Origin: a virus
Taxonomy: Duplodnaviria > Caudoviricetes
Reading direction: 5' to 3' (one strand)
Length of the DNA: 64,000 nt
Virus record (IMG/VR): IMGVR_UViG_3300020043_005956
Location: 2,241 to 66,240 of that record
Both the position numbers and the translations under genes were made by a program. The notes beneath the pieces were generated by a model, which saw nothing but the letters and a program-made list of their open reading frames with translations, did not search any database and had not been told where the DNA came from. Of the stretch, positions 10,121 through 44,600 are shown one piece after another. Each line of letters opens with the position of its first letter. The stretch's first letter is position 1.

Positions 10121-10597
10121 ATGAAAGAGAGGCACGTAAAAACAACTGAAACTGTTACCAATAATTTCTCAGAAGAAACTGGGGAATTGAAGGGAAGCCA
10201 TAAAGAAACAAAGAGCTATTCGATATTCGTGGAGGATAGCGAAAGCTTTGCTTATGTGTTTTCTTCGATTATAGGGGCATTAAAGAACTTGAATGGTAAT
10301 GATGTACTTCTTTTGACTTATTGTTCGTTAAACGCAGAATTTAACACCAACAGGATTACGATTAACAAGCCCATCTGTGACGAAATTTATGAGAAGCTTG
10401 GCGTTCCATATCAGTCGGTTAAGAACTCGCTTGGAAAAATGACCAAGATTGGTATCTTTCAAAGGTTGGGTTCGGGAAGTTATTTGATTAATCCCCATTA
10501 CTATTGGAGGGGTAAAAGGAATGAGAGAGGTAAAGTTGCCAAAGAGTTTAGTATATCAGTAAAAATCAAACCAAATAATAATTTTGAAAATGAGTAA
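10121..10597 (+). CDS. RepL-like replication/winged-HTH protein
   Basis: HTH followed by GSYLINPHYYWRG, typical of the RepL family. Confidence 0.7.
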   Translation: MKERHVKTTETVTNNFSEETGELKGSHKETKSYSIFVEDSESFAYVFSSIIGALKNLNGNDVLLLTYCSLNAEFNTNRITINKPICDEIYEKLGVPYQSVKNSLGKMTKIGIFQRLGSGSYLINPHYYWRGKRNERGKVAKEFSISVKIKPNNNFENE

Positions 10598-10822: not shown

Positions 10823-11029
10823 ATGACCTACCAAAAATGTCCAATCTGCGATGGAAGCGGTATGATTCCCGAACCCTATGCTGTAACAACAAGCTTCCAC
10901 GTCAAATGCCCCACCTGCAAAGGTGCAAGAATTATCAGTTCAATGACAGGCTTGCCTCCTGAAATGGTTGTCAAGGAGGTTGAGGAAAGGGAAAGGGAAA
11001 GAGAGAAAAGACAGAAAACAATTTACTAA
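10823..11029 (+). CDS. DnaJ-type zinc-finger small protein
   Basis: CPICDGSG and CPTCKGA motifs. Confidence 0.75.
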   Translation: MTYQKCPICDGSGMIPEPYAVTTSFHVKCPTCKGARIISSMTGLPPEMVVKEVEEREREREKRQKTIY

Positions 11030-11413: not shown

Positions 11414-11809
11414 ATGAAACTAATCATTGAAAGAAATCAAAACGAACGCCAAAGCGCAAATGTGACTATTGACACCAAGGGATTAATTTACCCCTACGCC
11501 ATCAGGGAAGCCTTAGAACTTGCCCTTGAACTTGATGGACACACTAAACAAGATATTGCAGAGGTGTTTAATCAAGGAATGGATGCAAAGTGTGAGCCGA
11601 GTAAGCTTGTTGAGGGCATGCCCTTTGATTATTCCAGCGATTACCAAGTTGGTGATGGTGTCGTAGTAGTTGTTGACGGAAAAGAAAGGGAAGGAACGAT
11701 ATTGTTAAAGCGAGTTGTAGAAGGAGTTAGGCTTTACGACATTAAGGGGGAAGATTTTATTGGCTGCTTCCCCGAACAAAGTATTCTTTTAAAATTTAAA
11801 CGCCCCTAA
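11414..11809 (+). CDS. hypothetical protein, paralogue of 11049..11402
   Basis: shared motifs as above. Confidence 0.7.
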   Translation: MKLIIERNQNERQSANVTIDTKGLIYPYAIREALELALELDGHTKQDIAEVFNQGMDAKCEPSKLVEGMPFDYSSDYQVGDGVVVVVDGKEREGTILLKRVVEGVRLYDIKGEDFIGCFPEQSILLKFKRP

Positions 11810-11814
11810 CCACC

Positions 11815-12000
11815 ATGCAACACTTAATCAAATCAGAACTACGCCGAAGGAAGGAACAACGCCACCTTGACTATTATGGCAAATGGGTTGAACGAGCAAT
11901 GGCAATGACTGCACGAAACAAACCTCGCCCCATCCTCCAAGATGAAATTGAGTATCCCGAAGCTGAAACATTTTGCTTTGAACTGAAAAATAGGAAGTAA
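11815..12000 (+). CDS. hypothetical protein
   Basis: ORF track; TAACCACC-ATG context like neighbours. Confidence 0.55.
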   Translation: MQHLIKSELRRRKEQRHLDYYGKWVERAMAMTARNKPRPILQDEIEYPEAETFCFELKNRK

Positions 12001-12125
12001 CCCCCTAAAAACACCGAAGGCCACCTTTTACAGCAGCCTTTGATGAAAACTTTAAACTATGAAAAAAAGTGAATCAAAACCAACCACGGAAAATTCACGA
12101 GGCAAAGGTAAATAAACTTTTTTAA

Positions 12126-12386
12126 ATGAGAAACTTCCTTATTGTAATTTTATTTCTGTTGTGTGTAGTCCAGGCAAATGAGATTGACAAGCTTGAACAG
12201 ATTGACGAGGTTCACATTATGGAGGCTTGTTACCCCGAAATTGACACAATGGTTGGGCGTGATTGCGTTAAAATTGTTTTTGGAAGGATTGCCAAGCAAA
12301 TTTATGACGACACGCTTAAAACGAACAGAATTTACATAGAAAAAGCAACTTTTAAATATTACTCCAATGACCCTCACCGCAATTGA
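12126..12386 (+). CDS. hypothetical protein with signal/anchor peptide
   Basis: MRNFLIVILFLLCVVQA. Confidence 0.55.
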   Translation: MRNFLIVILFLLCVVQANEIDKLEQIDEVHIMEACYPEIDTMVGRDCVKIVFGRIAKQIYDDTLKTNRIYIEKATFKYYSNDPHRN

Positions 12387-12582
12387 CCAACTTGCCCTTG
12401 ACCTTGTTTCGGAAGGGCTAATAAAGCATTACGATTTTGTTCACCTTGTCAAAAAAGCTAAGGAAATCGAAAAGCAGCAAATCATTGAAGCGAGAAGCAC
12501 CGCACCTTTGTTGCTTAAACCGATGAAGGAGGACTACAAGGTTGAAGCGGAACATTATTACAATAAGAAGTTTAAGAAATAG
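12367..12582 (+). CDS. conserved small Bacteroidota-phage protein
   Basis: AKEIEKQQIIEA...AEHYYNKKF pattern. Confidence 0.7.
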   Translation: MTLTAIDQLALDLVSEGLIKHYDFVHLVKKAKEIEKQQIIEARSTAPLLLKPMKEDYKVEAEHYYNKKFKK

Positions 12583-12613
12583 TTTGGTAGTTTCAAAAAC
12601 ATATCTATATTTG
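12583..12613 (+). promoter_or_regulatory. sigma-A promoter of the tRNA operon
   Basis: TTTG (12583-12586), 19-nt spacer, TATATTTG (12606-12613). Confidence 0.85.
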
Positions 12614-12621
12614 CACCCACA

Positions 12622-12690
12622 ATGAAACAATTTCAGCACATACATTTTACTCAACCGATATTTAGTTGGCTGGGGCTGTATTGTGCTTAA
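12622..12690 (+). CDS. attenuator leader peptide MKQFQHIHFTQPIFSWLGLYCA
   Basis: 22-codon ORF between the promoter and a terminator; codons match the downstream tRNAs. Confidence 0.8.
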   Translation: MKQFQHIHFTQPIFSWLGLYCA

Positions 12691-12709
12691 ACGATAAAAT
12701 TAAACGCAT

Positions 12710-12746
12710 AAAGCCCCGTTCAGAAATGTTCGGGGTTTTTTGTTTT
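12710..12746 (+). terminator. attenuator terminator upstream of tRNAs
   Basis: AAAGCCCCG/CGGGGTTTT stem followed by a long T tract. Confidence 0.85.
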
Positions 12747-12822
12747 TGGGAAATGGAGGAGTCAGGCCGTCCTCGCCTCCCTTGGAAGGAGGAGTTCGCA
12801 AGTTCGAATCTTGCTTTCCCGA
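12747..12822 (+). tRNA. tRNA-Pro(TGG)
   Basis: cloverleaf folded by hand; CCTCC-CT-TGG-AA-GGAGG; TTCGAAT T-loop. Confidence 0.9.
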
Positions 12823-12827
12823 CTTAT

Positions 12828-12898
12828 TGCCCTTTCGTCTAACGGCAGGACAATTCCCTTTGAAGGAATTTATCGTAGTTCGAATCTACGAGGGGCAA
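12828..12898 (+). tRNA. tRNA-Gln(TTG)
   Basis: TGCCCTT/AGGGGCA acceptor; ATTCC-CT-TTG-AA-GGAAT. Confidence 0.92.
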
Positions 12899-12908
12899 CT
12901 GATAACAT

Positions 12909-12980
12909 GGTGAAATTACGTTAATGGTAAACGGATTGCTTGTGATGCAATTATTATCAGTTCGAATCTGATATTTCACA
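12909..12980 (+). tRNA. tRNA-His(GTG)
   Basis: G-1 plus GTGAAAT/ATTTCAC acceptor; ATTGC-TT-GTG-AT-GCAAT. Confidence 0.88.
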
Positions 12981-12984
12981 CTTT

Positions 12985-13055
12985 GCTGACCTAACTCAAT
13001 GGTAGAGTGCTGGCCTGAAAAACCAGTAGTAAAGGTTCGACTCCTTTGGTTAGCG
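12985..13055 (+). tRNA. tRNA-Phe(GAA)
   Basis: GCTGACC/GGTTAGC acceptor; CTGGC-CT-GAA-AA-ACCAG. Confidence 0.88.
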
Positions 13056-13061
13056 CTAAAT

Positions 13062-13135
13062 TGACCCTTGGCTCGGTTGGTTAGGGCGGCGCACTCATAA
13101 TGCGAAGGTCGTTGGTTCGATTCCAACAGGGTCAA
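13062..13135 (+). tRNA. tRNA(CAT), probably Ile2 (lysidine) or elongator Met
   Basis: TGACCCT/AGGGTCA acceptor; CGCA-CT-CAT-AA-TGCG; lacks the initiator GGG/CCC stem. Confidence 0.88.
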
Positions 13136-13164
13136 CTTTTTTTTGGTAGTTTAATTTTTTGGTG

Positions 13165-13296
13165 TAATTTTGCCTTCAAGTTCACTCTTGGCGGAGCGCA
13201 CTAAAAAGACATTTTTTATTCCTCGGGCATAGCCCAAAGAATTCGACCCACTTGAAGTTCCCCTCCGCCAAGAGAACAAGTGGGCTTTTCTTTTTA
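13165..13296 (+). promoter_or_regulatory. promoter plus structured leader with competing pairings and a terminator-like stem
   Basis: TAATTTTG at 13165; CTCTTGGCGGAG/CTCCGCCAAGAG; CCCACTTG/CAAGTGGG followed by T tract. Confidence 0.75.
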
Positions 13297-14064
13297 ATGC
13301 CAAACCACAAAAGAGATAGGGAGTATGTAAGGTTTCAAGCTAAACTTAGCGATGAGGGCTTGCTTTCTTTGTGGTGCAACTTCGATACATTAAAAAGGCA
13401 TTGCGAAGTAATTAACGGAAAATGGGCAGACCTTGATGGAGGTTTTGTTCGTACAAAAGACCTCGAAATTCACGCTAAAAGGTTAAAGGTAAGGAAAGAT
13501 ACCCTTCGCAAGAAATTAAGCCAAATGGTGAAAGAAGGATGGGCAATAAAGAAGCGTACAGGCGTTCAATTAGTTTCTTGGAAAAAGGTTGCGGCTAAAT
13601 ATGGTTTCAACCTTAAACAGAGAATGATTTTAGGCCACAACAAAAAGACGTTTAGGCAAAATGCCACTTATGCTTACATAAGAAGTTCAATAAATCAAAA
13701 AGTTCACCGAAGATTTCAAGAACTTAACAGAAAGGAAATGATTGTTAAAAAGGAGCTTATCAGAGAAACCAAGCTCGCTTTGATTAACAACCCCAGCGAT
13801 GATTACAACTTTGCTCCTTCTGTTAGAGAGATTGCAAAGAACATCGGATTAAAGTCAGCAAGAAGCGTTTCAACAATTAATCAGAACCTTGAAGCAAGGG
13901 GATTGATTGAAATGGAGAAAAGGAATACGTTTGCTTGTATGACCGAGGACTATCCAATCTTCATCAAAGGACAACCCGAATTTGAAGGACATTGTTTCCG
14001 TTCAAAGAACGATAAAGGGCTTGTTGTAATGAGAAGATTGAAGCAATTTATTTTTTTAAAATAG
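13297..14064 (+). CDS. basic protein with two HTH-like segments (replication/regulation)
   Basis: ORF track 13252..14064, ATG at 13297; KDTLRKKLSQMVKEGW and PSVREIAKNIGLKSARSV. Confidence 0.7.
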   Translation: MPNHKRDREYVRFQAKLSDEGLLSLWCNFDTLKRHCEVINGKWADLDGGFVRTKDLEIHAKRLKVRKDTLRKKLSQMVKEGWAIKKRTGVQLVSWKKVAAKYGFNLKQRMILGHNKKTFRQNATYAYIRSSINQKVHRRFQELNRKEMIVKKELIRETKLALINNPSDDYNFAPSVREIAKNIGLKSARSVSTINQNLEARGLIEMEKRNTFACMTEDYPIFIKGQPEFEGHCFRSKNDKGLVVMRRLKQFIFLK

Positions 14065-14265
14065 GACTTTGGCAAAAAAATGCACATATTGAAAGAAACC
14101 CAATACCTTTAGACCATTTGGCATTAAGACAACAGCAAGGAGTATTTGACCCCCTGAACAAAGATAAAAACCCGATTTCACCCGCAAAAAATTATAAAAA
14201 ACAACCCAAAATAAATTTGTTTGTTTCATAAAACTTCATAACTTTGCGTAAAGGATTTAACTTTT

Positions 14266-14433
14266 ATGCCCAAACTCCGCAAAACGATAAACATTGACAA
14301 GGAAACAGCCGACAAGGTTGAGCAGTTGTCTGTCAAGCAGAAAAGGTCGTTCAGCCAAATGAGCGATATTTTGTTGAACAAAGGGATTGAAGTAACTGAA
14401 AAGGGAAAGTTATGCCACGCTACGCCAAAGTAA
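14266..14433 (+). CDS. ribbon-helix-helix regulator (55 aa)
   Basis: translated by hand: MPKLRKTINIDKETADKVEQLSVKQKRSFSQMSDILL; TAACTTTG promoter upstream. Confidence 0.7.
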   Translation: MPKLRKTINIDKETADKVEQLSVKQKRSFSQMSDILLNKGIEVTEKGKLCHATPK

Positions 14434-14552
14434 TCGCAACAGGAATCATTGGAAGGATTGGGGATATGGATGAAAACTTTGTAGGCTTGTGGATTGAAGG
14501 AAAAAGTCGGTTGCAAGTGTACCTAATTGGGGAGGTTGAATTAATTGATTAA
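14412..14552 (+). CDS. small hypothetical protein (46 aa)
   Basis: translated by hand: MPRYAKVIATGIIGRIGD... Confidence 0.45.
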   Translation: MPRYAKVIATGIIGRIGDMDENFVGLWIEGKSRLQVYLIGEVELID

Positions 14553-14796: not shown

Positions 14797-14991
14797 ATGA
14801 AAAATCAATCACTCCCCACCTTTGAAACATTCGTTGAAGATAACTTCATCAGAATCCATTTCGACCTTTACCAATCCATTGACACGAAAATTTACTATAC
14901 CTACGAACAGGTTGAGGCAAGGTACGCCAACTTGAAGTTTCAAGAAAGGGCAAAGAAATTAAATTTAAATCAAGAGGAAAAAGAACAATGA
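14797..14991 (+). CDS. hypothetical protein
   Basis: ORF track. Confidence 0.55.
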   Translation: MKNQSLPTFETFVEDNFIRIHFDLYQSIDTKIYYTYEQVEARYANLKFQERAKKLNLNQEEKEQ

Positions 14992-15422
14992 AAATATTAG
15001 CACTTGACATAGCCACCAACACAGGGTGGAAAACAGAAACCGCCAGCGGGGTGTGGAACTTAAAACCTGCAAGGGGTGAAAGCGAAGGAATGAGGGTTGT
15101 AAGGTTTAAATCCAAGGTGAGGGAACTTATCGAAATGGAATCAATCACCCTTGTCAGTTATGAACGCCCTGCTGGAATGCACAAAGCCTCCATTATGGTT
15201 GCATCAGAAATGGTTGGGGTGTTGAAAGACCTTTGCATTGAAAAAGGGATTGAACTTGCCTGTTATTCAGCAACAGAAATCAAAAAGTTTGCAACGGATA
15301 AAGGGAATGCCAACAAGGAACAAATGATTGAAGCGGCAAAGAATCTTGGGTTTAATCCAAAAGATGATAATGAGGCTGATGCCATATGGCTTTACCTTTT
15401 AACTAAAAAAGATGTTAACTAA
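14988..15422 (+). CDS. RuvC-like Holliday junction resolvase
   Basis: ILALDIATNTGW, YERP, KGNANKEQMI and DDNEADAI motifs. Confidence 0.88.
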   Translation: MKILALDIATNTGWKTETASGVWNLKPARGESEGMRVVRFKSKVRELIEMESITLVSYERPAGMHKASIMVASEMVGVLKDLCIEKGIELACYSATEIKKFATDKGNANKEQMIEAAKNLGFNPKDDNEADAIWLYLLTKKDVN

Positions 15423-28443: not shown

Positions 28444-31400
28444 ATGCCTGAACAATCAGTTGTACCTATTGGAAATTTAAACCTTGATGTTGATATAGCA
28501 AGGATTAAGGATGGCGATTATTCAAACGCTTTGGATATTACTTTCATAACAGACGAAGGTGGGTCAAGTGTTAGTGCTGAAAACCAATATGGAAACAAGT
28601 TTTCCTTTAAGTTAGGAAGTGTTGTTCCGCAGGTAAAGAAGTTTGTGATAAATATGCCCTCAAGCACGATTCCAAACGATATTCATTCTGCAACAGTATT
28701 TAGAAGCAACGGACTGCCTTGGTTTAGTTTTAATTTTTATTATCTTCCAACCCAAGCGCAAACTATATTAGATTTTGAAAGCGAATTTATATCTGAAATA
28801 AACGTAGCAGCTTCTTCGCCTCCATTCCCTTTTCAATCGTCTTTAAACGGTGGAGTTTATTCTATTTGGCTTGCACAGGACGGTCTTGATTGGAATATCC
28901 TTATTGATGGAGTTCCGCAAACAATTATTCAAGAGCCTGTTGGTAAACCTGGAATATTTAAGCCAATTGGAAGTTCGTATATTGACAACGACCTATTTGT
29001 TTGGTCTTGTGTAACTGATGATGAACCTTTGAAAGTTGACGTTGTAAATAGTCAGCAATTAGGGCAAATGATTGTCGTGAACACAGTTCCTTTTGCTAAT
29101 CCATATATCGGTTTACAACACGTTTATATTAGCGGAACAAACAATGGAATGGACGGAGCTTGGCTTGCTCAAAATAGCGTTGGTAGTCCTTTTTCATTCT
29201 TGCTTATTGGAAGCCAATGGACGGTCAATTCAAGCGGTGGAACAATACTTATAGGAACAGAGGCGATAGGAGAGCTTGGAGTTGCTCAATATACGGAAGG
29301 AACAGATTCGTATACATACACAAGACTTGCAAGGTCAAGGAAATTTAACTTTGTTTCAAAGCATCAAATTGACGCTCGTCCAACCGAAAGGAACATAAGA
29401 AGTACAAATTTCTATTGGACTGACAATTATAACCAACAAAGGTGTATGTACTATAAAGGTGCATACATTCAAGATGGTTTTATTTCTTATTTAAACCCTT
29501 TAGGGCTATACGAGTATCAAACATTTAATGAAGAAATACGTTCGCAAGTAATTGCTAATTTTAAGGTTCAATTTGTTTCGCAAGATTCAATAGGTGGAGC
29601 AGTAAAGGCAGGAAACCATAGGTACGTTGTAAGGGCAAGGAGTAGCGGAAGAAATAAAACTGAAATATCATTACCATCAGGACTTATAAACGTATACGCT
29701 CAACCAAATAACAATTTGGCTTTAGGGGCAGAAGTAGGAACTGCAACTTCAAAAATAAATAATTTAAGAATAACCAATATACCTCCTGGGATATTTGAAC
29801 AAATTGAACTTATAGACATTCTTTATAGTTCAAGTGTTGGACTTATTAGTGCTACTGTTGTAAATATTTATGATTTAAACCCAAACACAATAGAGTTGAA
29901 TGTTAGCCATACGGGCAATGAAACGGGTCAGTTTGGTGTTGATTTGGCTGAAATTGAATATATAACAGAGATTTATAAAACCGTAAAAAGCAACCAAGTG
30001 ATTGACAACAGAATGGTCAATACAAATGTTACTTTATACGAAGAGCTTGACTTGTCGGAGTTTTTTAAAACTTGGAAACATAGTATTGTAAGAAAACCAA
30101 TACAAGATAGTGGAAACTTTTTTGCAGAAGGAGATTTGTTTTACAACAATCCAAGCGTTCTTCTTACGGCCAAAGTTGGTAAAAATAATTTAAAATATGG
30201 AGAATATCAAGACCCAATTAATGTAAATCAGAATATGAGCCTTATGTTGAATGAAACATATAGGTTTATGGCAGTTTGTAAAAGAAAAGATAATGGTCAG
30301 CTTACTTCTGCCTTTTGGATTGATGACATTTGTATTAATAGTAGGGCTGCAAACGAAAATGTATTAGGCCAAGCGATTACAACAAATAGAAGGGTTGGGA
30401 CTGTGCCTGATGAATCGTTAATATACGGTCAGCCTACGCCGAATATTGGCCAAACCCATAGGCTTGGAGGACAAGACACCTATTCTTTAGCCCCCTTACC
30501 TCCGCCTGATGTTTCTATTTTGTATGATAATGGAACCATATTCGTTCAGCAAGGTCACAACTTGACAACAGGAGATACGGTATATGTATATGGGCTTGGA
30601 GGGGCTGGGGCTGTTGCTAATGGAGTTGATACTGGAGCTTTTTTTCAAGTTACCGTTATTAATAGTTTGGCATTTTCTTTGAATGGATGGGTTTATGGTG
30701 GTGCTATTTATGGCGATGGTTTAACTTTAAGTTATTGGAGTACATCAATAAATACTCCTATATGGGGAGGTTTCACTCTTTTTACTTATGGCGTAGAGTT
30801 TAGCGGATTTAATTTAAGTTATAAAATAAACGGATTGCCCATATTTGATTTAATTGATGAAATATACATATTTAGAGCAGATTGTATACCCGAAATATTA
30901 TTTACGGGAGTCATGGTTCCGTTGTCTTATGGCGCAATAAATGTAGGAGGTGATAATTTTGGAGCAAATCCTTCAAATCAAATTTCGGACTTTATAGATT
31001 CAGTTGGTAGTCACGCAATTAACTTTGGTGGAAATTATTACAGAGATTATAGCCAATATGCGGCAAATATAAGGTATCAAGCCCAAGTTGCTTTTTATAG
31101 CGCAGACCACGATATGTCAGGAAATAATGCTGGTCTATTTTTAAATAGTGATATCGTACTTAACTACGGGCCTCTTGCATTTTGCAGAAGTTCTCATGGT
31201 CTCACACAAATTGAGGGTCTTGGAAAACAAGCTTTTGCCACAACAGTTATGGAGTTAGGTTTTTTTATGAAAAACACTCCTCCGATTGTTGTTCAAAACA
31301 TGACAGGCGGTGCTTTTGTTGAAGAAGGCGGCATCTATACAAATCCGCAAAACTTTGCAAACTATGTAAAAACGCAATATGGAAGTACATCAACACATAC

Positions 31401-33300
31401 TAACTATTACAATCTTGCTGCTTCTTGGTATTTAGATTTAAATCAATCTATATGGAATTGGAATACAGACCCAATTCAACAAGGGTTTATTGATACAATA
31501 TGTTATGGACAATATTATAGACCAAAAGCTTATAACCCAAGCAACCCAGAATCTAATAAATACGGAAGGTTTGACCAAACTATAAGTTATTTTACGGGTG
31601 TAACTGTTGATTTAAAATCAACAGCCGTAGCCCCATATTTAGGTTCACTTATGCCAACGGGATTAATTCAAGTTTACAATGGCGATGTTTATAATCAGAA
31701 ACATTTTCATAAAATAAGGATTCCAACAAGTGGAACAACAGGAGCATCTGACAAGTGGGTTGCTGGTGGTGGTGCTATAATTTATTATGGTCAAAATAGG
31801 AATAATTCAAGAATGGTTAGCCAAGTCAATACAAATGGCGACCCTCAATTTCCTATAACAAATTATGGCGGATGGCTTGGCCCTGAAAAAAACGCAAGGC
31901 CTGCGTATAGTGCTACTTATAATTTTTGGTCTAAATTAAAAAGCAAAAAAAGCTACTCAATTGATGTTCGTGATTATGCAGCCCCATCCCGAACTGTTTA
32001 CTCCGCTTTAAAACCTCAAGACGGAACGTATGATGGTTATAGGGACTTTCAGCCGCTTGATTTTCTTGATGTTCCTATGACCGATGGAGAAATAACCCAT
32101 CACGAAAAGGTAAATGGCGAGTTGTTTATACAGCAAGTTAAGAAGTGGCTTAAATACTTCTTCAACACAAGGGGTGAACTTCAAGTTACAGGCAATTCAA
32201 CTTCAATTGCAATTGGCGATGGAAGCGTTCTTGCTCGTCCACCAATCGAACTTTCCGCCTATGGTTCAAGAAACAAATGGTCTTTTATAAAAGGCAAAAG
32301 CGTTGGAGGGCAAGAAGTTGTTTACATATTTGATTTGACCTCAAAAGCTATCATCAGATACGCTGGGGATGGCACAAGGAACATTTCTCTTGAAAACAAT
32401 ATTGACAGCTTTATACGCAATAATACACGCTTTTTGGATGGTGTTGATACTCCCGCTTGGAAGTATGGTATTGCAGGGGTTTGGAATGAAAAAAGAAAGG
32501 TTGCCATTTGGACTGCAAGGGCTATTAACCCAACAAAACCTATTTGGTTTGTAACATTGCCTTATCAGGTAGGGGATATAGTTTGGTTTGGTGACAACAA
32601 TACAGATGCAGGATGGGAACAGTTGCCTGCTTTTTTTGAATGTATACAAGCAAACAATGGTTCTTTATCCAACAAGCCATTAAGTGGTGCTGATTGGCAA
32701 GACTATTGGGTTCAGTTACCTTTGTCCGACAATAGGGTTTATAATGTTTGGACGTTAGAATTTAACGAACTAAAGAATGGATTTAGTACCTTTGGCACTC
32801 CAAAACCTAAAATCTATATGCCATTTAGAAATACAGTTCTTACGGGCGACCCAAGGGTTAGTTTATCTAATCAGTATGAACAAGATATTTACGAGCAAGA
32901 CAATGGTGAAAAAGGCGTTTGGTATGATTACAGAACGGGTGAGGGGCTTTATGCCGATGGTTTTATAGAGCTTGTTTTTAATTCACAAACGCAGGATATT
33001 AAACATTATTTAGCCCTTCGTGTAAATAGTTTGATAAAACCTTTTAAATTTGAACTTTTTACGAAAAAGAATCAAACTTTCATGTTGGCTTCGGATGTTG
33101 AAGAAAGGGAGGATTTGTTCTTTACTGCTGTAAAAAATGACTCTAATACGCCGCCGTATATTGGTCAAAACGACCAAGATACTTCTGCTATTTTTGGTCA
33201 ATATGTAAAAATTAAAATGTACTTTGAAAAAAGAACAAGGCAATATTTAACTGATTTGATGGTAAGGTTTAAATTTAGTCCAAGAAACTCAAATAAGTAA
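28444..33300 (+). CDS. tail muzzle/stabilisation protein (P22 gp10-like, crAss-type)
   Basis: GNLNLDVD...GDYSNALDI N-terminus, YWTDNYN motif, LNETYRF; about 1620 aa. Confidence 0.8.
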   Translation: MPEQSVVPIGNLNLDVDIARIKDGDYSNALDITFITDEGGSSVSAENQYGNKFSFKLGSVVPQVKKFVINMPSSTIPNDIHSATVFRSNGLPWFSFNFYYLPTQAQTILDFESEFISEINVAASSPPFPFQSSLNGGVYSIWLAQDGLDWNILIDGVPQTIIQEPVGKPGIFKPIGSSYIDNDLFVWSCVTDDEPLKVDVVNSQQLGQMIVVNTVPFANPYIGLQHVYISGTNNGMDGAWLAQNSVGSPFSFLLIGSQWTVNSSGGTILIGTEAIGELGVAQYTEGTDSYTYTRLARSRKFNFVSKHQIDARPTERNIRSTNFYWTDNYNQQRCMYYKGAYIQDGFISYLNPLGLYEYQTFNEEIRSQVIANFKVQFVSQDSIGGAVKAGNHRYVVRARSSGRNKTEISLPSGLINVYAQPNNNLALGAEVGTATSKINNLRITNIPPGIFEQIELIDILYSSSVGLISATVVNIYDLNPNTIELNVSHTGNETGQFGVDLAEIEYITEIYKTVKSNQVIDNRMVNTNVTLYEELDLSEFFKTWKHSIVRKPIQDSGNFFAEGDLFYNNPSVLLTAKVGKNNLKYGEYQDPINVNQNMSLMLNETYRFMAVCKRKDNGQLTSAFWIDDICINSRAANENVLGQAITTNRRVGTVPDESLIYGQPTPNIGQTHRLGGQDTYSLAPLPPPDVSILYDNGTIFVQQGHNLTTGDTVYVYGLGGAGAVANGVDTGAFFQVTVINSLAFSLNGWVYGGAIYGDGLTLSYWSTSINTPIWGGFTLFTYGVEFSGFNLSYKINGLPIFDLIDEIYIFRADCIPEILFTGVMVPLSYGAINVGGDNFGANPSNQISDFIDSVGSHAINFGGNYYRDYSQYAANIRYQAQVAFYSADHDMSGNNAGLFLNSDIVLNYGPLAFCRSSHGLTQIEGLGKQAFATTVMELGFFMKNTPPIVVQNMTGGAFVEEGGIYTNPQNFANYVKTQYGSTSTHTNYYNLAASWYLDLNQSIWNWNTDPIQQGFIDTICYGQYYRPKAYNPSNPESNKYGRFDQTISYFTGVTVDLKSTAVAPYLGSLMPTGLIQVYNGDVYNQKHFHKIRIPTSGTTGASDKWVAGGGAIIYYGQNRNNSRMVSQVNTNGDPQFPITNYGGWLGPEKNARPAYSATYNFWSKLKSKKSYSIDVRDYAAPSRTVYSALKPQDGTYDGYRDFQPLDFLDVPMTDGEITHHEKVNGELFIQQVKKWLKYFFNTRGELQVTGNSTSIAIGDGSVLARPPIELSAYGSRNKWSFIKGKSVGGQEVVYIFDLTSKAIIRYAGDGTRNISLENNIDSFIRNNTRFLDGVDTPAWKYGIAGVWNEKRKVAIWTARAINPTKPIWFVTLPYQVGDIVWFGDNNTDAGWEQLPAFFECIQANNGSLSNKPLSGADWQDYWVQLPLSDNRVYNVWTLEFNELKNGFSTFGTPKPKIYMPFRNTVLTGDPRVSLSNQYEQDIYEQDNGEKGVWYDYRTGEGLYADGFIELVFNSQTQDIKHYLALRVNSLIKPFKFELFTKKNQTFMLASDVEEREDLFFTAVKNDSNTPPYIGQNDQDTSAIFGQYVKIKMYFEKRTRQYLTDLMVRFKFSPRNSNK

Positions 33301-41612: not shown

Positions 41613-44600
41613 ATGGCTTGCGAGGTTAAATACCAAGGGCAGACACTTTCTTTTGAAGAGTTTGCCGAAAAGTTGCATAATGGACTTTTGGACGAATTTA
41701 TTGCCCAAGGTGTTGTTAAGAATGTACCAACCATAAAATCAATTCAAGATGCCGTACAAAAGCAAAGCGCAGAGGGCGTTCTTTCACGCCAACAAGGAAA
41801 AGTTGGAGAAGCAGGGGGTGAACGTCAAGGAATGGGACAAGGCAAGCAAGGGCAAGAAGCTGCCAAGCCGAGCAAAGAAGAAATAACTTCCGCAGAAGCA
41901 ACGGTTGCTCTTGATGAAGAAACCGAACTATTGCTTGAAGGACTTGCCGCAGAAAGGAGAAGGGCGGGCAAATATACAGTTGACGGAGTAACATATACAA
42001 GAAACGAAAAAGGACAAGGTATTGTTTCGGAGAAAGGTGGGTATATTAGGTTTACAAGCGAACCTGGCGGTGGTGGCGTTGTCGTTCCTTTTAGATACAA
42101 ACTTGCTGAAGCAAAAAGAGTTCAGCCTTCACACGAAGGAGGTTTGAGAAATCCAAATTTCTTTATACCCGAAGGTCAACCAAAAAATAGAAACGACCAA
42201 GCAAGTTTGCAAGCAGAAGATGATTTTGCAAACAACCCAAGGTTTGATGAGCTTGGAGAAGATTCAGGGGCGTATAAAGGTGCGCCTGTTGCAAATGAAA
42301 GGGATGAGATTATTCAAGGGAACAGCAGGGGTGCTGGAATTAAAAAAGGATATGCTATTGGCAATAAAAAGTACAAGCAAGACTTAGCTGCAAATGCAGA
42401 GAAATTTGGATTTACCAAAGAACAAGTTGAAAGTATGGAAAACCCAATGCTTGTTCGTGAGGTTATTGCAACTGATGAAAAAGCTATTGAACTTGGAAAC
42501 TACGATGTAAAAGACCTTGAAACCGCAGGAAAAAGAAGGATTGACCCTTCTGCTCTTGTTCGTAGGCTTCCTTCAAAAGTTAAAGCGAGCCTTGCTAAAG
42601 TTATTTCAGCAGGGGAAACGATTAAAGAATCTATTAAAGAAAATGCGGATGAGATTTATCAACTTATACGTCCGTATATCAATACAAGTATTGCCAACAC
42701 TATAATCACAAATGGCAAATTAAATTCTGTTGGTATTGAGGACGTTGAGGGCTTATTTACGCAGTTCTTGTTTCAGAATGGCGACCCAAACCTTCCTCAA
42801 ATGTTTGAAGGTTTGTCTAATACACAACGTGAGGGCATTAAAAAGGCTTTACCATACTTGCTAAGTGCAGGAGCAGGCAAAAGTATCATACCCGATGTTC
42901 AAGAAGCGATAATTGCTTTGCATTATTTTAGGTCAAGCGGTGAACAAAGTTTTGCTGCGTGGGCTAATCAAATTGACATTAATACAGGTCAATCCAAAAA
43001 GGATATGTTTAGCCCTTTGGCTTTGAAACTTGCCGAAAATTTCAACAAGGCAACAAGTCAAAACGAAATTGCAGGTATTCCGCAAAAAGGTGGAGAGGCG
43101 AGCAGTTTTGCTAAGTATAGCCAATTAACGCAAGGAACGGAAGGCGGGTTATTTGAAGAAGCCCAAGAGGGTATGTCAAGGCAAGATGCGGTAAAGGAAG
43201 CGTTTGGAGTTGAATATACGCCAAGAAAAGGATATACAAGTGCTGCTAAGTTTGAGGAAAGTGAAGCTAAAAGAAAGGAAATAGAGAAAGAAAAGGCTGA
43301 AAAGGAAAAGGCTAAACAAACAAAGAAGGAGATAAAAGAAAAGCTTAAAACAGCTCAAGAAGCATTAAACAGAACAAAAGAGCAACTTTCTGAAATTGAA
43401 AGACTGAAACAAAGTGCTGCTTCAAATTTAGAAAAAATACTTTCAAAAATTGGTGGAATACAAAATATAACACCACAAGAAAGAACAAAGCTTGTTGAGG
43501 ATTTAAAAAATATTATAAAGGATTTAACAGCCTTAACTTATTTAGAAATAAAAAATCTACTTGCTCCGATTTTAACAAGAAAGGGTTTCTCTGAACTTGA
43601 AGCAGAGGATATAATAAATGAAGCAGCAAGTGATTTCATTTCAGAAGAAGATGCTTATATTGGTTTAACAAACGAATACGATAAAGCACAAAGGGCGGCA
43701 AGGGGATTAGACCCAATAGCAAAAGCCGCAAGGCAAACAAACCAAGTGGTTTGGGATAGAACAGTTGAGCGCATACAAAATGGAAATATTGTATTAAGGG
43801 ATAAGACCAACACAGGGCTTATTTCAAAATTAGCCACAGGAGAAATAGAAGCAATTAGCCCTGAAATACAAGCCGCTATTTTATATGATAGGATATATCT
43901 TCAAAATGCTAAAGAGGCGTATGTAAAAAAACTTGCCGAGCAAGGTGCTGTTATAACAAACGAGGAAAGGTTAAATATATTAGCTCAATTAGCTGAAATT
44001 GATGCACATATTCAAGAAAACGAATTAGCCAATGCGAATGTTGGAAGAACCTGGGGAAGAACAGGCGTATTTAGGCAGGTTTTAGCGGCAAGAGATTATA
44101 CATTAAAAGGTGTAATTTCAAGAGCGAAGGCAATGAATGGAGGTGCATCGTTAAGCACAGAGCAAGAAGCGAAGCTTGTTAAGTTAACCGAGCAATTTGC
44201 TGAACTGCAAAAGGATTTAGACAAAATTCAAAAGGCTTTTGATGAGCAATTAAAAATAGAAAAAGAGATAGCTCGGAAAGAAGGATATAACAAAGCAAAA
44301 ATGGAGGTTTCTTCTGTTCCTTCTTCTTCTACTATAAAGGAAAAGTCAAAAGAACTTGCCAATAAGCTTAGGGCTGCAAAAATTACAAGTTCTACATACA
44401 CCTTTAGTTCTGTTGTTCCAATACCTCCAACGGTTGTAAACGTGGGTATAGAGGCTGCGGCAAAGTCTATTGAAACTGTTGGTACTGTTGCTGATGCAAT
44501 AGCAAAGGGTATTGAAGCTATAAAAAATGAGGCATCAGGTTGGTATAAAAACTTGACACCACAAGAAAAGCAAAGGTTCGATAATTGGTTTGGAGGATTT

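What the first reader, a model, noticed from the sequence alone, without database searches (positions are those of the whole stretch)
12583..13135. Phage tRNA operon gated by a leader-peptide attenuator whose codons match the encoded tRNAs
Seen: promoter (TTTG-N19-TATATTTG), then a 22-codon ORF (12622-12690), then an intrinsic terminator (12710-12746), then five tRNAs: Pro-UGG, Gln-UUG, His-GUG, Phe-GAA and a CAU tRNA. Leader codons 3-14 are CAA TTT CAG CAC ATA CAT TTT ACT CAA CCG ATA TTT. Eleven of these twelve are read by the five tRNAs if the CAU tRNA is Ile2, and both Ile codons are ATA, the codon Ile2 reads. The distal leader sequence TGGGGCT (12671-12677) is complementary to the terminator 5' arm AGCCCCG (12712-12718). 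Established: this is the geometry of trp/his/pheA-type ribosome-mediated attenuation. Inference: a ribosome stalled on codons 3-14 leaves GGGGCT free to form the antiterminator, so the phage makes its tRNAs only when those host tRNAs are depleted or cleaved, e.g. by anticodon nucleases or tRNA-targeting toxins. That would be a multiplexed sense-and-replace counter-defence switch. I do not know of a description of this in phage tRNA arrays.
Basis: partly seen in the sequence, partly recalled or inferred. Interest (0 to 1): 0.95.

Follow-up and report, generated by a model that had tools for sequence, protein, structure and literature searches.

The report
Leader-peptide switch gating phage tRNA genes
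A phage puts a tiny test gene, spelled in the codons that its own five tRNAs read, plus a switchable stop signal in front of those tRNA genes, so it probably makes them only when ribosomes run short of these tRNAs, a control I could not find described for tRNA genes.

Summary
This covers the Bacteroidota-type promoter, the 22-codon ORF, the terminator abutting tRNA-Pro, the five tRNAs and the GGGGCU/AGCCCC complementarity.

- **Codon match.** 11 of 12 codons match. It is the single best of about 128,000 twelve-codon windows in the 64 kb.
- **RNA switch.** The leader RNA forms three mutually exclusive hairpins of -18.0, -17.5 and -18.1 kcal/mol. None of 3000 shuffles reproduces both alternative pairings.
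- **CAU tRNA.** It groups with tRNA-Ile2.
- **One cassette.** Close relatives of the phage lack leader, terminator and tRNAs together.
- **Other arrays.** I reached these only through tRNA-Pro similarity. Five further blocks carry leaders spelling their own tRNA sets: three in Erythrobacter phage vB_EliS-L02 and two on metagenome contigs. In a 6x6 cross-match only the true pairing reaches the observed score (1 of 720 permutations).
- **Misses.** Two further blocks, three lone tRNAs and a T5-like phage show no matched leader.

Best reading: a ribosome-mediated attenuator that senses decoding of the array's own codons. The anticodon-nuclease trigger is untested, and there are no expression data. 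This scan noted the same idea earlier on other DNA. Six literature searches found no description.

The parts
12583..12613 (+). Promoter P1, Bacteroidota sigma-A type: -33 TTTG, 19-nt spacer, -7 TATATTTG. Its first 11 nt (TTTGGTAGTTT) recur at 13142.
   Evidence: pattern match. The consensus TTTG/TANNTTTG with G at -5 comes from passages of PMC6847099 and PMC9723704. The TSS is inferred at 12618-12619 and was not measured.
12622..12690 (+). Leader ORF of 22 codons plus TAA. The predicted 5' UTR is only 3-4 nt (near-leaderless), and the start codon is unpaired in the MFE fold.
12628..12663 (+). Regulatory codons 3-14: Gln x3, Phe x3, His x2, Ile(ATA) x2, Pro x1 and one Thr. All five tRNAs of the array are sampled.
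   Evidence: 11 of 12, unique best of about 128,000 windows.
12635..12687 (+). Hairpin 1:2 (protector), -18.0 kcal/mol. It sequesters region 2 when no ribosome is on the leader.
12667..12722 (+). Antiterminator 2:3, -17.5 kcal/mol. The core is 12671-12677 paired with 12712-12718, plus 12682-12685 with 12705-12708 and 12687-12690 with 12700-12703.
   Evidence: Duplex energy is -19.9 against shuffles at -10.5 (sd 2.6); 8 of 3000 shuffles reach it.
12706..12746 (+). Intrinsic terminator 3:4 (-18.1 kcal/mol, core stem 12710-12718 with 12731-12739) and a U-rich tract to 12746.
   Evidence: Not listed by the simple scan.
12747..12823 (+). tRNA-Pro (UGG), 77 nt with a long D arm. It belongs to a phage-borne lineage.
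12828..12899 (+). tRNA-Gln (UUG)
12910..12981 (+). tRNA-His (GUG)
12985..13056 (+). tRNA-Phe (GAA)
13062..13136 (+). tRNA with anticodon CAU, most likely tRNA-Ile2 (lysidine-dependent, reads AUA)
13142..13172 (+). Promoter P2 (TTTG-N19-TAATTTTG) for the downstream Rep-like gene. It is the second copy of the 11-nt repeat that bounds the cassette.
12587..13176 (+). The cassette as a whole (-7 box, leader, terminator, five tRNAs, next -33 box). In close relatives it is replaced by 29-30 nt of a single promoter.
   Evidence: joint 12586 to 13177/13178 in contigs of runs X1, X2 and X6; L002.

Best explanation
This is a ribosome-mediated (leader-peptide) transcription attenuator that gates a five-gene phage tRNA array, and it senses the supply of the very tRNAs it controls. 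P1 starts a transcript whose first feature is a 22-codon ORF. With no ribosome on the leader, hairpin 1:2 forms. With a ribosome that has run to the stop codon, region 2 is covered. In both cases the terminator 3:4 forms and transcription ends in the U tract one base before tRNA-Pro. If the ribosome instead lingers on codons 3-13, region 1 is covered and region 2 is free. It would linger there because charged Gln, Phe, His, Ile2 or Pro tRNA is scarce. Region 2 then pairs with the terminator's 5' arm as soon as that arm emerges, and RNA polymerase reads through into the tRNA genes. The new tRNAs relieve the stall, which closes a negative feedback loop. Shown here: the parts, their statistics, mutually exclusive folds of equal strength, the cassette's indel behaviour, and covariation of leader content with tRNA content in independent arrays. 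Inferred: the TSS, translation of the ORF, termination, and stall-dependent read-through.
For: (1) Codon match. 11 of 12 codons match, the unique best of about 128,000 windows. The binomial P is 5.3e-8 per window at the six-frame background of 0.177. The same codons make up 14.0% of codons in 32 long ORFs, His only 0.8%, and ATA is 35% of Ile codons.
(2) Switch. The three hairpins are -18.0, -17.5 and -18.1 kcal/mol. Complementarity of region 2 to region 3 is reached by 8 of 3000 shuffles. It is reached together with 1:2 by 0 of 3000 shuffles and 0 of 2984 native segments. On a transcript cut at 12722, a ribosome mask with the A site at codons 3-13 leaves 6-11 antiterminator pairs. A mask at codons 14, 15 or the stop leaves none.
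(3) No other promoter. The terminator sits between the only nearby promoter and the tRNAs, with no room for another.
(4) One cassette. In contigs of three runs from three studies, and in IMG/VR relative L002, leader, terminator and tRNAs are absent together while both flanking genes stay. The hairpin is therefore not the upstream gene's terminator.
(5) CAU tRNA. Its best full-length matches in E. coli genomes are PGAP 'tRNA-Ile' genes with anticodon CAT. It shares C4:G69 and C5:G68 with that gene, and these are TilS identity pairs (passages of PMC11947777).
(6) Independent arrays, reached only through tRNA-Pro similarity. Erythrobacter phage vB_EliS-L02 blocks B, C and D, and metagenome contigs L019 and L020 block 3, each have an upstream mini-ORF spelling its own block. 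Their best 12-residue windows score 11, 12, 12, 12 and 12 of 12, with at most 1 of 1000 shuffles reaching this in four and 49 of 1000 in L020, where a 16-residue window scores 16 of 16 at 1 of 1000. In the 6x6 cross-match every region scores highest against its own tRNA set, and 1 of 720 permutations reaches the diagonal sum. A significant antiterminator partner (at most 3 of 1000 shuffles) is present in 5 of 7 such leaders.
Against: - There are no expression data of any kind. No RNA run holding the stretch was listed.
- This particular leader has no homologue in any collection searched. Only the window's own record and one identical 164-nt contig hold it, so neither conservation nor compensatory change can be tested on it.
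- The predicted 5' UTR is 3-4 nt. Leaderless or near-leaderless mRNAs are a minority in flavobacteria: 5.5% leaderless in F. psychrophilum, and 87% of leaders longer than 10 nt in F. johnsoniae.
- At equilibrium on the full transcript the terminator wins for 10 of the 11 ribosome positions tried. The antiterminator wins only with the A site at codon 7, so the model needs co-transcriptional kinetics.
- The simple terminator scan did not list the hairpin.
- Five of the 11 matches need wobble reading (CAG, TTT x3... CAT, CCG), and two need the Ile2 assignment. Under the Met reading the score is 9 of 12.
- At the amino-acid level, 8 windows in the phage reach 11 of 12.
- The arrangement is not universal. 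L020 block 1 (5 of 12) and L021 (4 of 12, although it has a leader and a homologous terminator) are not enriched. Lone tRNAs in L014, L015 and the Erythrobacter tRNA-Glu have no leader. By eye, none of 10 small CDS upstream of tRNAs in Klebsiella phage Sugarland spells its tRNAs.
Confidence: 0.7

Rival explanations
1. The ORF is a chance ORF with a fixed terminator. The hairpin would be a constitutive, leaky terminator or a 5' processing/stability hairpin that came in with the tRNA cassette. The tRNAs would be made by basal read-through, and the codon match and upstream complementarity would be coincidences picked out from a very large scan.
For: The first stage read some 250,000 windows, so rare coincidences will be found. 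The promoter pattern alone is not enriched (9 found against 5.4 expected). At the amino-acid level 8 windows reach 11 of 12. L021 has a homologous terminator and a leader that does not match its tRNAs.
Against: The codon-level match is the unique best of about 128,000 windows. The double alternative pairing is reached in 0 of 3000 shuffles. The same arrangement, with leaders rewritten to fit different tRNA sets, appears in five further blocks found without reference to their leaders, and 1 of 720 permutations reaches the observed score.
Confidence: 0.12
2. The promoter-ORF-terminator unit is an independent small gene. It would encode either a 22-residue peptide or a small RNA of about 125 nt with its own function, and the tRNAs behind it would merely share the locus.
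For: The unit has its own promoter and terminator. Attenuator-derived small RNAs with trans functions exist, for example rnTrpL (PMC6614838, search listing only). There is a weak Rfam match to ohsC_RNA (26 bits against a cut-off of 50, E 0.55).
Against: The tRNAs would then have no promoter of their own, since the terminator abuts tRNA-Pro. The unit is absent wherever the tRNAs are absent. A peptide or sRNA function does not explain why the codons follow the array's content in other phages. The Rfam match is far below threshold.
Confidence: 0.08
3. The switch is real but reports general translation status, such as ribosome availability, host shut-off or antibiotics, rather than the supply of these particular tRNAs. 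The codon choice would be secondary.
For: Any slowing of the lead ribosome within codons 3-13 would give the same fold. The Anabaena tRNA operon is induced by general translational stress (passages of PMC8421152).
Against: A general sensor needs no particular codons. Yet six leaders each favour their own array's amino acids over the other five sets, and both Ile codons here are ATA, against 35% in the phage's genes.
Confidence: 0.05

Closest known systems
Leader-peptide transcription attenuators of amino-acid operons (trpL, hisL, pheL, leuL; multivalent thrL and ilvL). Named from textbook knowledge; pheL also from the abstract of PMC3082878 in the listing.
   Same: A short ORF rich in regulatory codons, hairpins 1:2, 2:3 and 3:4, and an intrinsic terminator. 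A ribosome at the stop codon covers region 2. Several amino acids are sensed at once, as in the multivalent leaders.
   Different: The genes behind the terminator are tRNA genes, not biosynthetic enzymes, so the sensor reads the direct product of the operon. Five different tRNAs are sampled rather than runs of one codon. The element lies on a mobile phage cassette, has no Shine-Dalgarno sequence and has a near-leaderless start. No Rfam leader family matches.
T-box riboswitches, and the pheST (pheM) attenuator of aminoacyl-tRNA synthetase genes (recalled, not from a call)
   Same: They couple tRNA status to transcription read-through of genes of the translation apparatus.
   Different: A T-box binds uncharged tRNA directly and needs no ribosome, and no T-box match was found. 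Both control synthetase or amino-acid genes, not tRNA genes.
Anabaena sp. PCC 7120 trn operon (long tRNA array), PMC8421152 (passages) and PMC10272220 (abstract start)
   Same: An accessory tRNA array that is silent by default and switched on when translation is impaired. An rtcB ligase is associated with it, and an 'RNA-splicing ligase' is also annotated near the Erythrobacter phage arrays.
   Different: It is controlled at the promoter through direct repeats and the repressor TrcR. The words leader, attenuat- and terminator occur 0 times in PMC8421152. It is cellular, not a phage element.
Leaderless polycysteine short ORFs that act as cysteine-responsive attenuators in mycobacteria (bioRxiv 10.1101/834739; title and abstract start only)
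   Same: A leaderless or near-leaderless short ORF, first on the transcript, whose codon content sets expression of the downstream genes.
   Different: It senses one amino acid and controls protein-coding operons. I did not read the mechanism in detail.
Phage tRNAs as codon compensation or as replacements for tRNAs cut by host defences (PMC10264068 abstract start and passages; PMC12409363 abstract start)
   Same: They explain why a phage carries tRNAs, and they give a setting in which sensing tRNA loss would pay.
   Different: These papers concern the tRNAs themselves. In PMC10264068 the words terminator, promoter and leader occur 0 times.

Membership tests
Ribosome-mediated leader-peptide attenuator (trp/his/phe/thr/ilv type) | Short ORF with a start codon at the 5' end of the transcript, upstream of the controlled genes | tested here: met
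   ORF 12622-12690 begins 8 nt after the -7 box. The start is unpaired in the MFE fold.
Ribosome-mediated leader-peptide attenuator (trp/his/phe/thr/ilv type) | Regulatory codons cognate to what the operon supplies | tested here: met
   11 of 12 codons are read by the five tRNAs, and this is the unique top of about 128,000 windows.
Ribosome-mediated leader-peptide attenuator (trp/his/phe/thr/ilv type) | Intrinsic terminator between the leader ORF and the controlled genes | tested here: met
   A -18.1 kcal/mol hairpin plus a U6GU5 tract ends at 12746. The simple scan did not list it.
Ribosome-mediated leader-peptide attenuator (trp/his/phe/thr/ilv type) | Antiterminator and protector hairpins that exclude the terminator and each other | tested here: met
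   -17.5 and -18.0 kcal/mol. Both pairings together are reached in 0 of 3000 shuffles.
Ribosome-mediated leader-peptide attenuator (trp/his/phe/thr/ilv type) | Geometry: a stall on the regulatory codons frees region 2, and a ribosome at the stop codon covers it | tested here: met
   Ribosome-mask folding. Codons 3-13 keep 6-11 antiterminator pairs. Codons 14, 15 and the stop keep 0.
Ribosome-mediated leader-peptide attenuator (trp/his/phe/thr/ilv type) | The leader is translated and read-through rises on ribosome stalling | not testable with these tools
   No RNA run holding the stretch was listed. This needs reporter assays, Term-seq and Ribo-seq.
Ribosome-mediated leader-peptide attenuator (trp/his/phe/thr/ilv type) | Controlled genes are amino-acid biosynthesis (or synthetase) genes, and the leader belongs to a curated leader family | tested here: not met
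   The controlled genes are five tRNAs. cmscan at E up to 1 gave no leader family. It therefore works like this family but is not a member of any described one.
T-box riboswitch | Specifier loop and T-box sequence that bind tRNA (Rfam T-box model) | tested here: not met
   No T-box match in 11500-14500 at E up to 1.
tRNA-Ile2 (anticodon CAU, lysidine-modified) | CAU anticodon with acceptor pairs C4:G69 and C5:G68 (TilS identity pairs in E. coli; 3:70 and 4:69 in B. cenocepacia) | tested here: met
   Alignment; passages of PMC11947777.
tRNA-Ile2 (anticodon CAU, lysidine-modified) | Closer to annotated tRNA-Ile(CAU) than to tRNA-Met | tested here: met
   The ten best E. coli records listed (of 5428 with a match) all fall on PGAP 'tRNA-Ile' features, at 79-81% identity over bases 4-70. 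The gene beside mug has anticodon CAT. The window's tRNA groups with L020 CAU_a and not with L020 CAU_b or L019 CAU. No isotype-specific model was available.
tRNA-Ile2 (anticodon CAU, lysidine-modified) | C34 is converted to lysidine by the host TilS and the tRNA is charged with Ile | not testable with these tools
   Needs tRNA sequencing or mass spectrometry.
Bacteroidota sigma-A promoter | -7 element TANNTTTG (no G at -10/-9) with -33 TTTG, and a TSS 4-5 nt after the -7 element | tested here: inconclusive
   The sequence fits at 12583-12613 (consensus). The pattern is not enriched in the window (9 against 5.4 expected), and no TSS data exist. A homologous single promoter precedes the Rep-like gene in relatives.

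The most novel reading that the evidence does not exclude
Leader-gated tRNA cassettes form a widespread, mobile class in phages of unrelated hosts (Bacteroidota, Alphaproteobacteria, marine and freshwater lineages). They are often built on a shared phage-borne tRNA-Pro placed just after the terminator. Each leader would be a programmable, multiplexed OR-gate that is rewritten whenever the array's content changes. The phage could then replace exactly those tRNAs that run short during infection, including tRNAs destroyed by host anticodon nucleases. That would make it a sense-and-replace counter-defence with built-in feedback.
Probability: 0.25. Interest if true: 0.95.

Novelty: new variant of a known kind. 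Interest (0 to 1): 0.87.

Why it matters
Phage tRNAs have been debated for decades, either as codon compensation or as replacement of tRNAs cut by host defences. How their expression is controlled has hardly been asked.

A leader that is decoded by the very tRNAs it gates would be a direct, product-sensing feedback on tRNA supply. That logic is so far known only for amino-acid and synthetase genes.

It makes an old question testable. The codons in each leader say which tRNAs the phage expects to run short of. Selective starvation or tRNA cleavage should derepress only the matching block.

Erythrobacter phage vB_EliS-L02 was isolated on a named host and has three differently spelled leaders, so it offers a ready experimental system.

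The design is compact, at about 125 nt, and could serve as a programmable sensor of decoding capacity.

Tried and rejected
**Homologues of this leader**
- An exact 23-mer of the leader gave 0 stretches in IMG/VR. Exact stretches of tRNA-Pro and tRNA-His, and a 30-mer tRNA-Pro core, also gave 0.
- The scan's own index found 0 look-alikes.
- The 22-mer tRNA-Pro core gave 0 hits in 185,579 species genomes.
- No conservation test on this leader was therefore possible.

**Relatives found through proteins**
- The Rep-like protein gave 1 locus and the 71-aa protein gave 6 loci. None of the 7 has a tRNA.
- The terminase gave 1 locus and the terminase alignment gave 5 records, with 0-1 tRNA each.
- The terminase search also found seven protein clusters at 88-89% identity (P0002-P0008) from other assemblies.

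**Expression**
- No RNA holder was listed. The one RNA run shown held next to none of the words.

**A metric I dropped**
- The gain from pairing region 3 on the whole upstream sequence was -2.4 kcal/mol, and 803 of 1000 shuffles did as well.
- I dropped it because the native 1:2 hairpin competes with 2:3, which is what a switch should do. I used duplex energies instead.

**Readings rejected**
- 'Terminator of the upstream 71-aa gene': relatives keep that gene and have no terminator after it.
- ohsC-like type I antitoxin RNA: 26 bits against a cut-off of 50.
- T5-like Klebsiella phage Sugarland: its tRNAs are interspersed with ordinary small genes, and by eye none of 10 spells its tRNAs. I made no statistical test there.
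- L021: I could not fetch the rest of the 50.7-kb contig. Within the 1859 nt held, only three tRNA-like genes follow the leader and then coding sequence starts.

**Literature**
- Six searches found no account of leader-peptide control of tRNA genes.
- The library holds only CC-licensed PMC papers and bioRxiv, and supplements were closed. Older phage T5/T4 tRNA papers in subscription journals were therefore not searched.
Full report
**What the window is**

The window is 64,000 of the 66,240 bases of an IMG/VR virus record with direct terminal repeats. The finding lies in an early/replication region. Nearby genes are:
- a RepL-like gene at 10121-10597;
- a winged-helix/LexA-DBD Rep-like gene starting at ATG 13297;
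- a RuvC gene at 14988-15422;
- terminase and portal genes from 16779.

**Observation**

- One search finds TTTG-N19-TATATTTG at 12583-12613.
- One search lists the ORF 12622-12690 (MKQFQHIHFTQPIFSWLGLYCA).
- Searches give five tRNAs from 12747 to 13136: Pro-UGG, Gln-UUG, His-GUG, Phe-GAA and CAU, at 50.8-64.4 bits against Rfam's cut-off of 29.
- RNAfold gives a -18.1 kcal/mol hairpin at 12706-12743. Its U6GU5 tract ends at 12746, one base before tRNA-Pro.

The promoter pattern by itself is not enriched in the window (9 matches against 5.4 expected).

By the flavobacterial consensus the G of the -7 box is at -5 (passages of PMC6847099 and PMC9723704). The TSS would then fall at 12618-12619 and the 5' UTR would be 3-4 nt.

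**Is the codon match more than chance?**

I defined the codons read by the five anticodons under plain wobble rules, with ATA for the CAU tRNA. I then slid a 12-codon window over all six frames of the 64 kb.
- The leader window 12628-12663 scores 11. It is the only one of about 128,000 windows to do so.
- The two windows that score 10 overlap it. Elsewhere the maximum is 9.
- The six-frame background frequency of these codons is 0.177, which gives a binomial P of 5.3e-8 per window.
- In 32 long ORFs of the phage the same codons make up 14.0% of codons. His makes up 0.8% there but supplies 2 of the 12 leader codons.
- Both leader Ile codons are ATA, against 35% of Ile codons in the phage's genes.
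- All five tRNAs are sampled: Gln 3, Phe 3, His 2, Ile2 2, Pro 1.
- With CAU read as Met the best window scores 9 of 12, which ties the top of the phage. 3 of 1000 shuffles of the upstream 200 nt reach it.
- At the amino-acid level the signal is weaker. 8 windows reach 11 of 12, most of them in out-of-frame Pro/Phe/Gln-rich stretches.

**The RNA switch**

The leader can form three hairpins that exclude each other:
- 1:2 at 12635-12687, -18.0 kcal/mol;
- 2:3 at 12667-12722, -17.5 kcal/mol.
- 3:4, the terminator, -18.1 kcal/mol.

The whole leader folds with z = -3.0.

With the terminator's 5' arm held fixed, the duplex energy of its best upstream partner is -19.9. Shuffles give -10.5 (sd 2.6), and 8 of 3000 reach the native value. 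The combination of 2:3 and 1:2 at native strength is reached by 0 of 3000 shuffles and by 0 of 2984 native 81-nt segments of the window.

I then folded the transcript cut at 12722, that is, before the terminator's 3' arm exists, with a 30-nt ribosome mask.
- With the A site on codons 3-13, 6-11 antiterminator pairs remain.
- With the A site on codon 14, codon 15 or the stop codon, none remains.

This is the trp/his geometry. It depends on co-transcriptional folding. On the complete transcript at equilibrium the terminator wins for 10 of the 11 ribosome positions I tried.

**The CAU tRNA**

- In 5,426 E. coli genomes the ten best records listed all fall on features that PGAP calls tRNA-Ile, at 79-81% identity over bases 4-70.
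- The one I opened lies beside mug and has anticodon CAT. I recall this locus as ileX.
- In the alignment the window's tRNA shares C4:G69, C5:G68, C6:G67 and U7:A66 with that gene and with one CAU tRNA of contig L020. The other CAU tRNAs, of L020 and L019, form a second type.
- Positions 4:69 and 5:68 are TilS identity pairs in E. coli (passages of PMC11947777).

I therefore read it as tRNA-Ile2. No isotype-specific model was available to confirm this.

**Close relatives lack the whole unit**

IMG/VR contig L002/L009 has a Rep-like protein 93% identical and a terminase 96% identical to the window's. In it, 12361-13169 is replaced by about 40 nt that hold one promoter.

I laid Logan contigs of four freshwater or plankton runs on 12100-13400.
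- Runs X1, X2 and X6, from three studies, hold contigs that keep the 71-aa gene and the Rep-like gene.
- Those contigs jump from 12586 to 13177/13178, with 29-30 nt of a single promoter between.
- Run X5 holds a 164-nt contig identical to 12617-12780.

So the -7 box, leader, terminator, five tRNAs and the next -33 box form one cassette. It is bounded by the 11-nt repeat TTTGGTAGTTT at 12583 and 13142.

Two things follow. The hairpin is not the terminator of the upstream gene. And the tRNAs have no promoter other than P1 or read-through from upstream, so they can only be expressed through this terminator.

**Do leaders follow their arrays elsewhere?**

I reached other arrays only through similarity to the unusual 77-nt tRNA-Pro, never through their leaders.

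(a) Erythrobacter phage vB_EliS-L02 (OL955261.1). Its tRNA-Pro is 83% identical to the window's. The phage has 32 tRNAs. Each of its three multi-tRNA blocks is preceded by a TTGACA-N17-TATnnT promoter, a mini-ORF and a terminator. Scans of 50 kb in six frames gave:

| Block | tRNAs | Best leader stretch | Score and rank |
|---|---|---|---|
| B | Pro, Pro, Val, Ile, Ala, Asn | NVIAMNNPAPAIMVPVAMA | 16 of 19, the unique best window |
| C | Lys to Arg, 12 tRNAs | KRDRREGDERGF | 12 of 12 at codon level; one of 3 windows in 99,930 to reach this |
| D | Ser to Leu, 13 tRNAs | LHLLTQTTLCWQCQYSSLS | 19 of 19; unique best at both amino-acid and codon level |

I found the leader of block D through this scan, not by eye.

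(b) A metagenome scan with the 22-nt tRNA-Pro core gave three contigs.
- L019: the array Glu, Tyr, Pro, Asp, Lys, CAU, Ala lies behind MTTLYYYMEPKAKEDDDPLNGLLIW and a terminator.
- L020: the block Ala, Asp, Asn, Trp, Thr, Arg, CAU, Lys, Ile, CAU, Phe, Val lies behind MKRNWFNIIFTMFATRD... and a terminator.

For the six regions I took the best 12-residue window in the upstream 200 nt, over all three frames (165 nt for L020, where that is all the space available). I scored each region against each of the six tRNA sets and compared with 1000 shuffles.
- Own-set scores are 11, 11, 12, 12, 12 and 12.
- Shuffles reaching these scores number 0, 1, 1, 1, 0 and 49 of 1000.
- Every region scores highest against its own set.
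- Only the true pairing reaches the diagonal sum (1 of 720 permutations).
- With a 16-residue window L020 scores 16 of 16, reached by 1 of 1000 shuffles.

A significant upstream partner for the terminator's 5' arm (at most 3 of 1000 shuffles) exists in 5 of 7 leaders. The exceptions are Erythrobacter block C (39 of 1000) and block D (238 of 1000).

**Misses, told in full**

- L020 block 1 (Pro, Gln, His, Arg, Leu, Leu, Ser, Ser) has an HNH-like ORF ending 12 nt before it and no leader. It scores 5 of 12, and 997 of 1000 shuffles do as well.
- L021 shares the terminator and tRNA-Pro with the window (75% over 108 nt) and has a 24-codon leader. That leader spells about 13 amino acids, while only a Pro-like gene, Val and Gly follow. 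It scores 4 of 12, and 958 of 1000 shuffles do as well.
- The lone tRNAs of L014, L015 and the Erythrobacter tRNA-Glu have no leader.
- In the T5-like Klebsiella phage Sugarland none of 10 small annotated CDS upstream of tRNAs spells its tRNAs. I judged this by eye only.
- Three of the six positive regions come from one phage.

**Mechanism**

The best-supported reading is a classical ribosome-mediated attenuator turned onto tRNA genes.
- No ribosome on the leader, or a fast ribosome that reaches the stop codon, leads to termination before tRNA-Pro.
- A ribosome that waits on Gln, Phe, His, AUA-Ile or Pro codons leads to antitermination and synthesis of exactly those tRNAs, which then relieve the stall.

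Shown here: the parts, the statistics, the alternative folds, the cassette behaviour and the cross-array covariation. Inferred: the TSS, translation of a near-leaderless ORF, termination and stall-dependence.

What makes the tRNAs scarce is open. Candidates are the phage's own codon usage (ATA is 35% of its Ile codons and CAA 87% of its Gln codons), host shut-off, starvation, or anticodon nucleases. The counter-defence version is attractive, since phage tRNAs are known to counter tRNA-cutting defences (PMC10264068 and PMC12409363, abstract starts). It is untested here.

**Comparison with what is known**

The element works like the trp/his/phe/thr/ilv leaders, but it is not a member of any curated leader family, and it controls tRNA genes. 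It is not a T-box.

The nearest functional parallel in print that I found is the Anabaena trn operon. That is an accessory tRNA array induced by translational stress, but through promoter repeats and a repressor. It has no leader, attenuator or terminator (0 occurrences of these words in PMC8421152; PMC10272220 abstract start).

Leaderless short-ORF attenuators exist in mycobacteria (10.1101/834739, abstract start only).

Six full-text searches found no description of leader-peptide control of tRNA genes. The library lacks most subscription journals, and supplements were closed.

**Earlier notes of this scan**

Earlier AI notes report the same idea in other phages: giant phages, phiCbK-like Caulobacter phages, a marine Bacteroidota phage and a lake phage. 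I did not test their DNA and do not count them as evidence. One of them gave me the lead to the Anabaena paper.

**Verdict**

- The attenuator reading is supported in silico, with my confidence at 0.7.
- The defence trigger is untested.
- I class it as a new variant of a known kind of control. It is of high interest because it is general across unrelated phages and directly testable.

Noticed in passing
window 13165-13296: The 5' leader of the Rep-like winged-helix gene (ATG 13297) holds a perfect 12-nt inverted repeat, CTCTTGGCGGAG at 13185-13196 and CTCCGCCAAGAG at 13263-13274. The region is about 90% conserved in relative L002. It may be a second RNA switch or an operator/origin element.
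   Followed up: no
window 12747-12823; L017 2994-3072; L019, L020, L021: The tRNA-Pro(UGG) is 77 nt with a long D arm (anticodon at position 37). Its 22-nt core is absent from 185,579 species genomes. It is present in three metagenome contigs. The tRNA is 83% identical to one in Erythrobacter phage L02 and 81-82% to a tRNA in T5-like Klebsiella phages. This looks like a tRNA-Pro lineage carried by phages of unrelated hosts, often as the first gene after the terminator.
   Followed up: partly
L021 1185-1259 and 1280-1613: A 24-codon leader spelling about 13 different amino acids and a terminator homologous to the window's (75% over 108 nt) precede only a Pro-like gene that ARAGORN does not call, then tRNA-Val and tRNA-Gly. 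It may be a decayed array that kept its old leader.
   Followed up: partly
L020 314-655: A 113-aa HNH-endonuclease-like ORF ends 12 nt before the first tRNA of a 21-tRNA array that begins Pro-Gln-His, like the window's. That block has no leader. A homing endonuclease may have displaced it.
   Followed up: no
window 12583-12593 and 13142-13152: An 11-nt direct repeat, TTTGGTAGTTT, sits at the start of two promoters and bounds the tRNA cassette. Relatives carry one hybrid promoter instead. This suggests gain or loss by recombination between promoters.
   Followed up: partly
L018 (OL955261.1 50001-100000): 30306-31547 and 43462-43890: Erythrobacter phage L02 has genes annotated 'RNA-splicing ligase' and 'aminoacyl-tRNA hydrolase' near its 32-tRNA region. 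The leaders of its blocks B and C share a 5' UTR hairpin, GACGCGGGAT..CCCGC.
   Followed up: no
window 10823-11029: A 68-aa CxxC zinc-ribbon protein has sub-threshold Pfam matches to Anti-TRAP (24.8 bits against a cut-off of 32) and the DnaJ CXXCXGXG domain. I draw no functional conclusion.
   Followed up: no
window 13136-13146: The last tRNA is followed at once by a run of eight T that merges into the -33 TTTG of promoter P2. The acceptor/T-arm plus this run may end the tRNA transcript.
   Followed up: no
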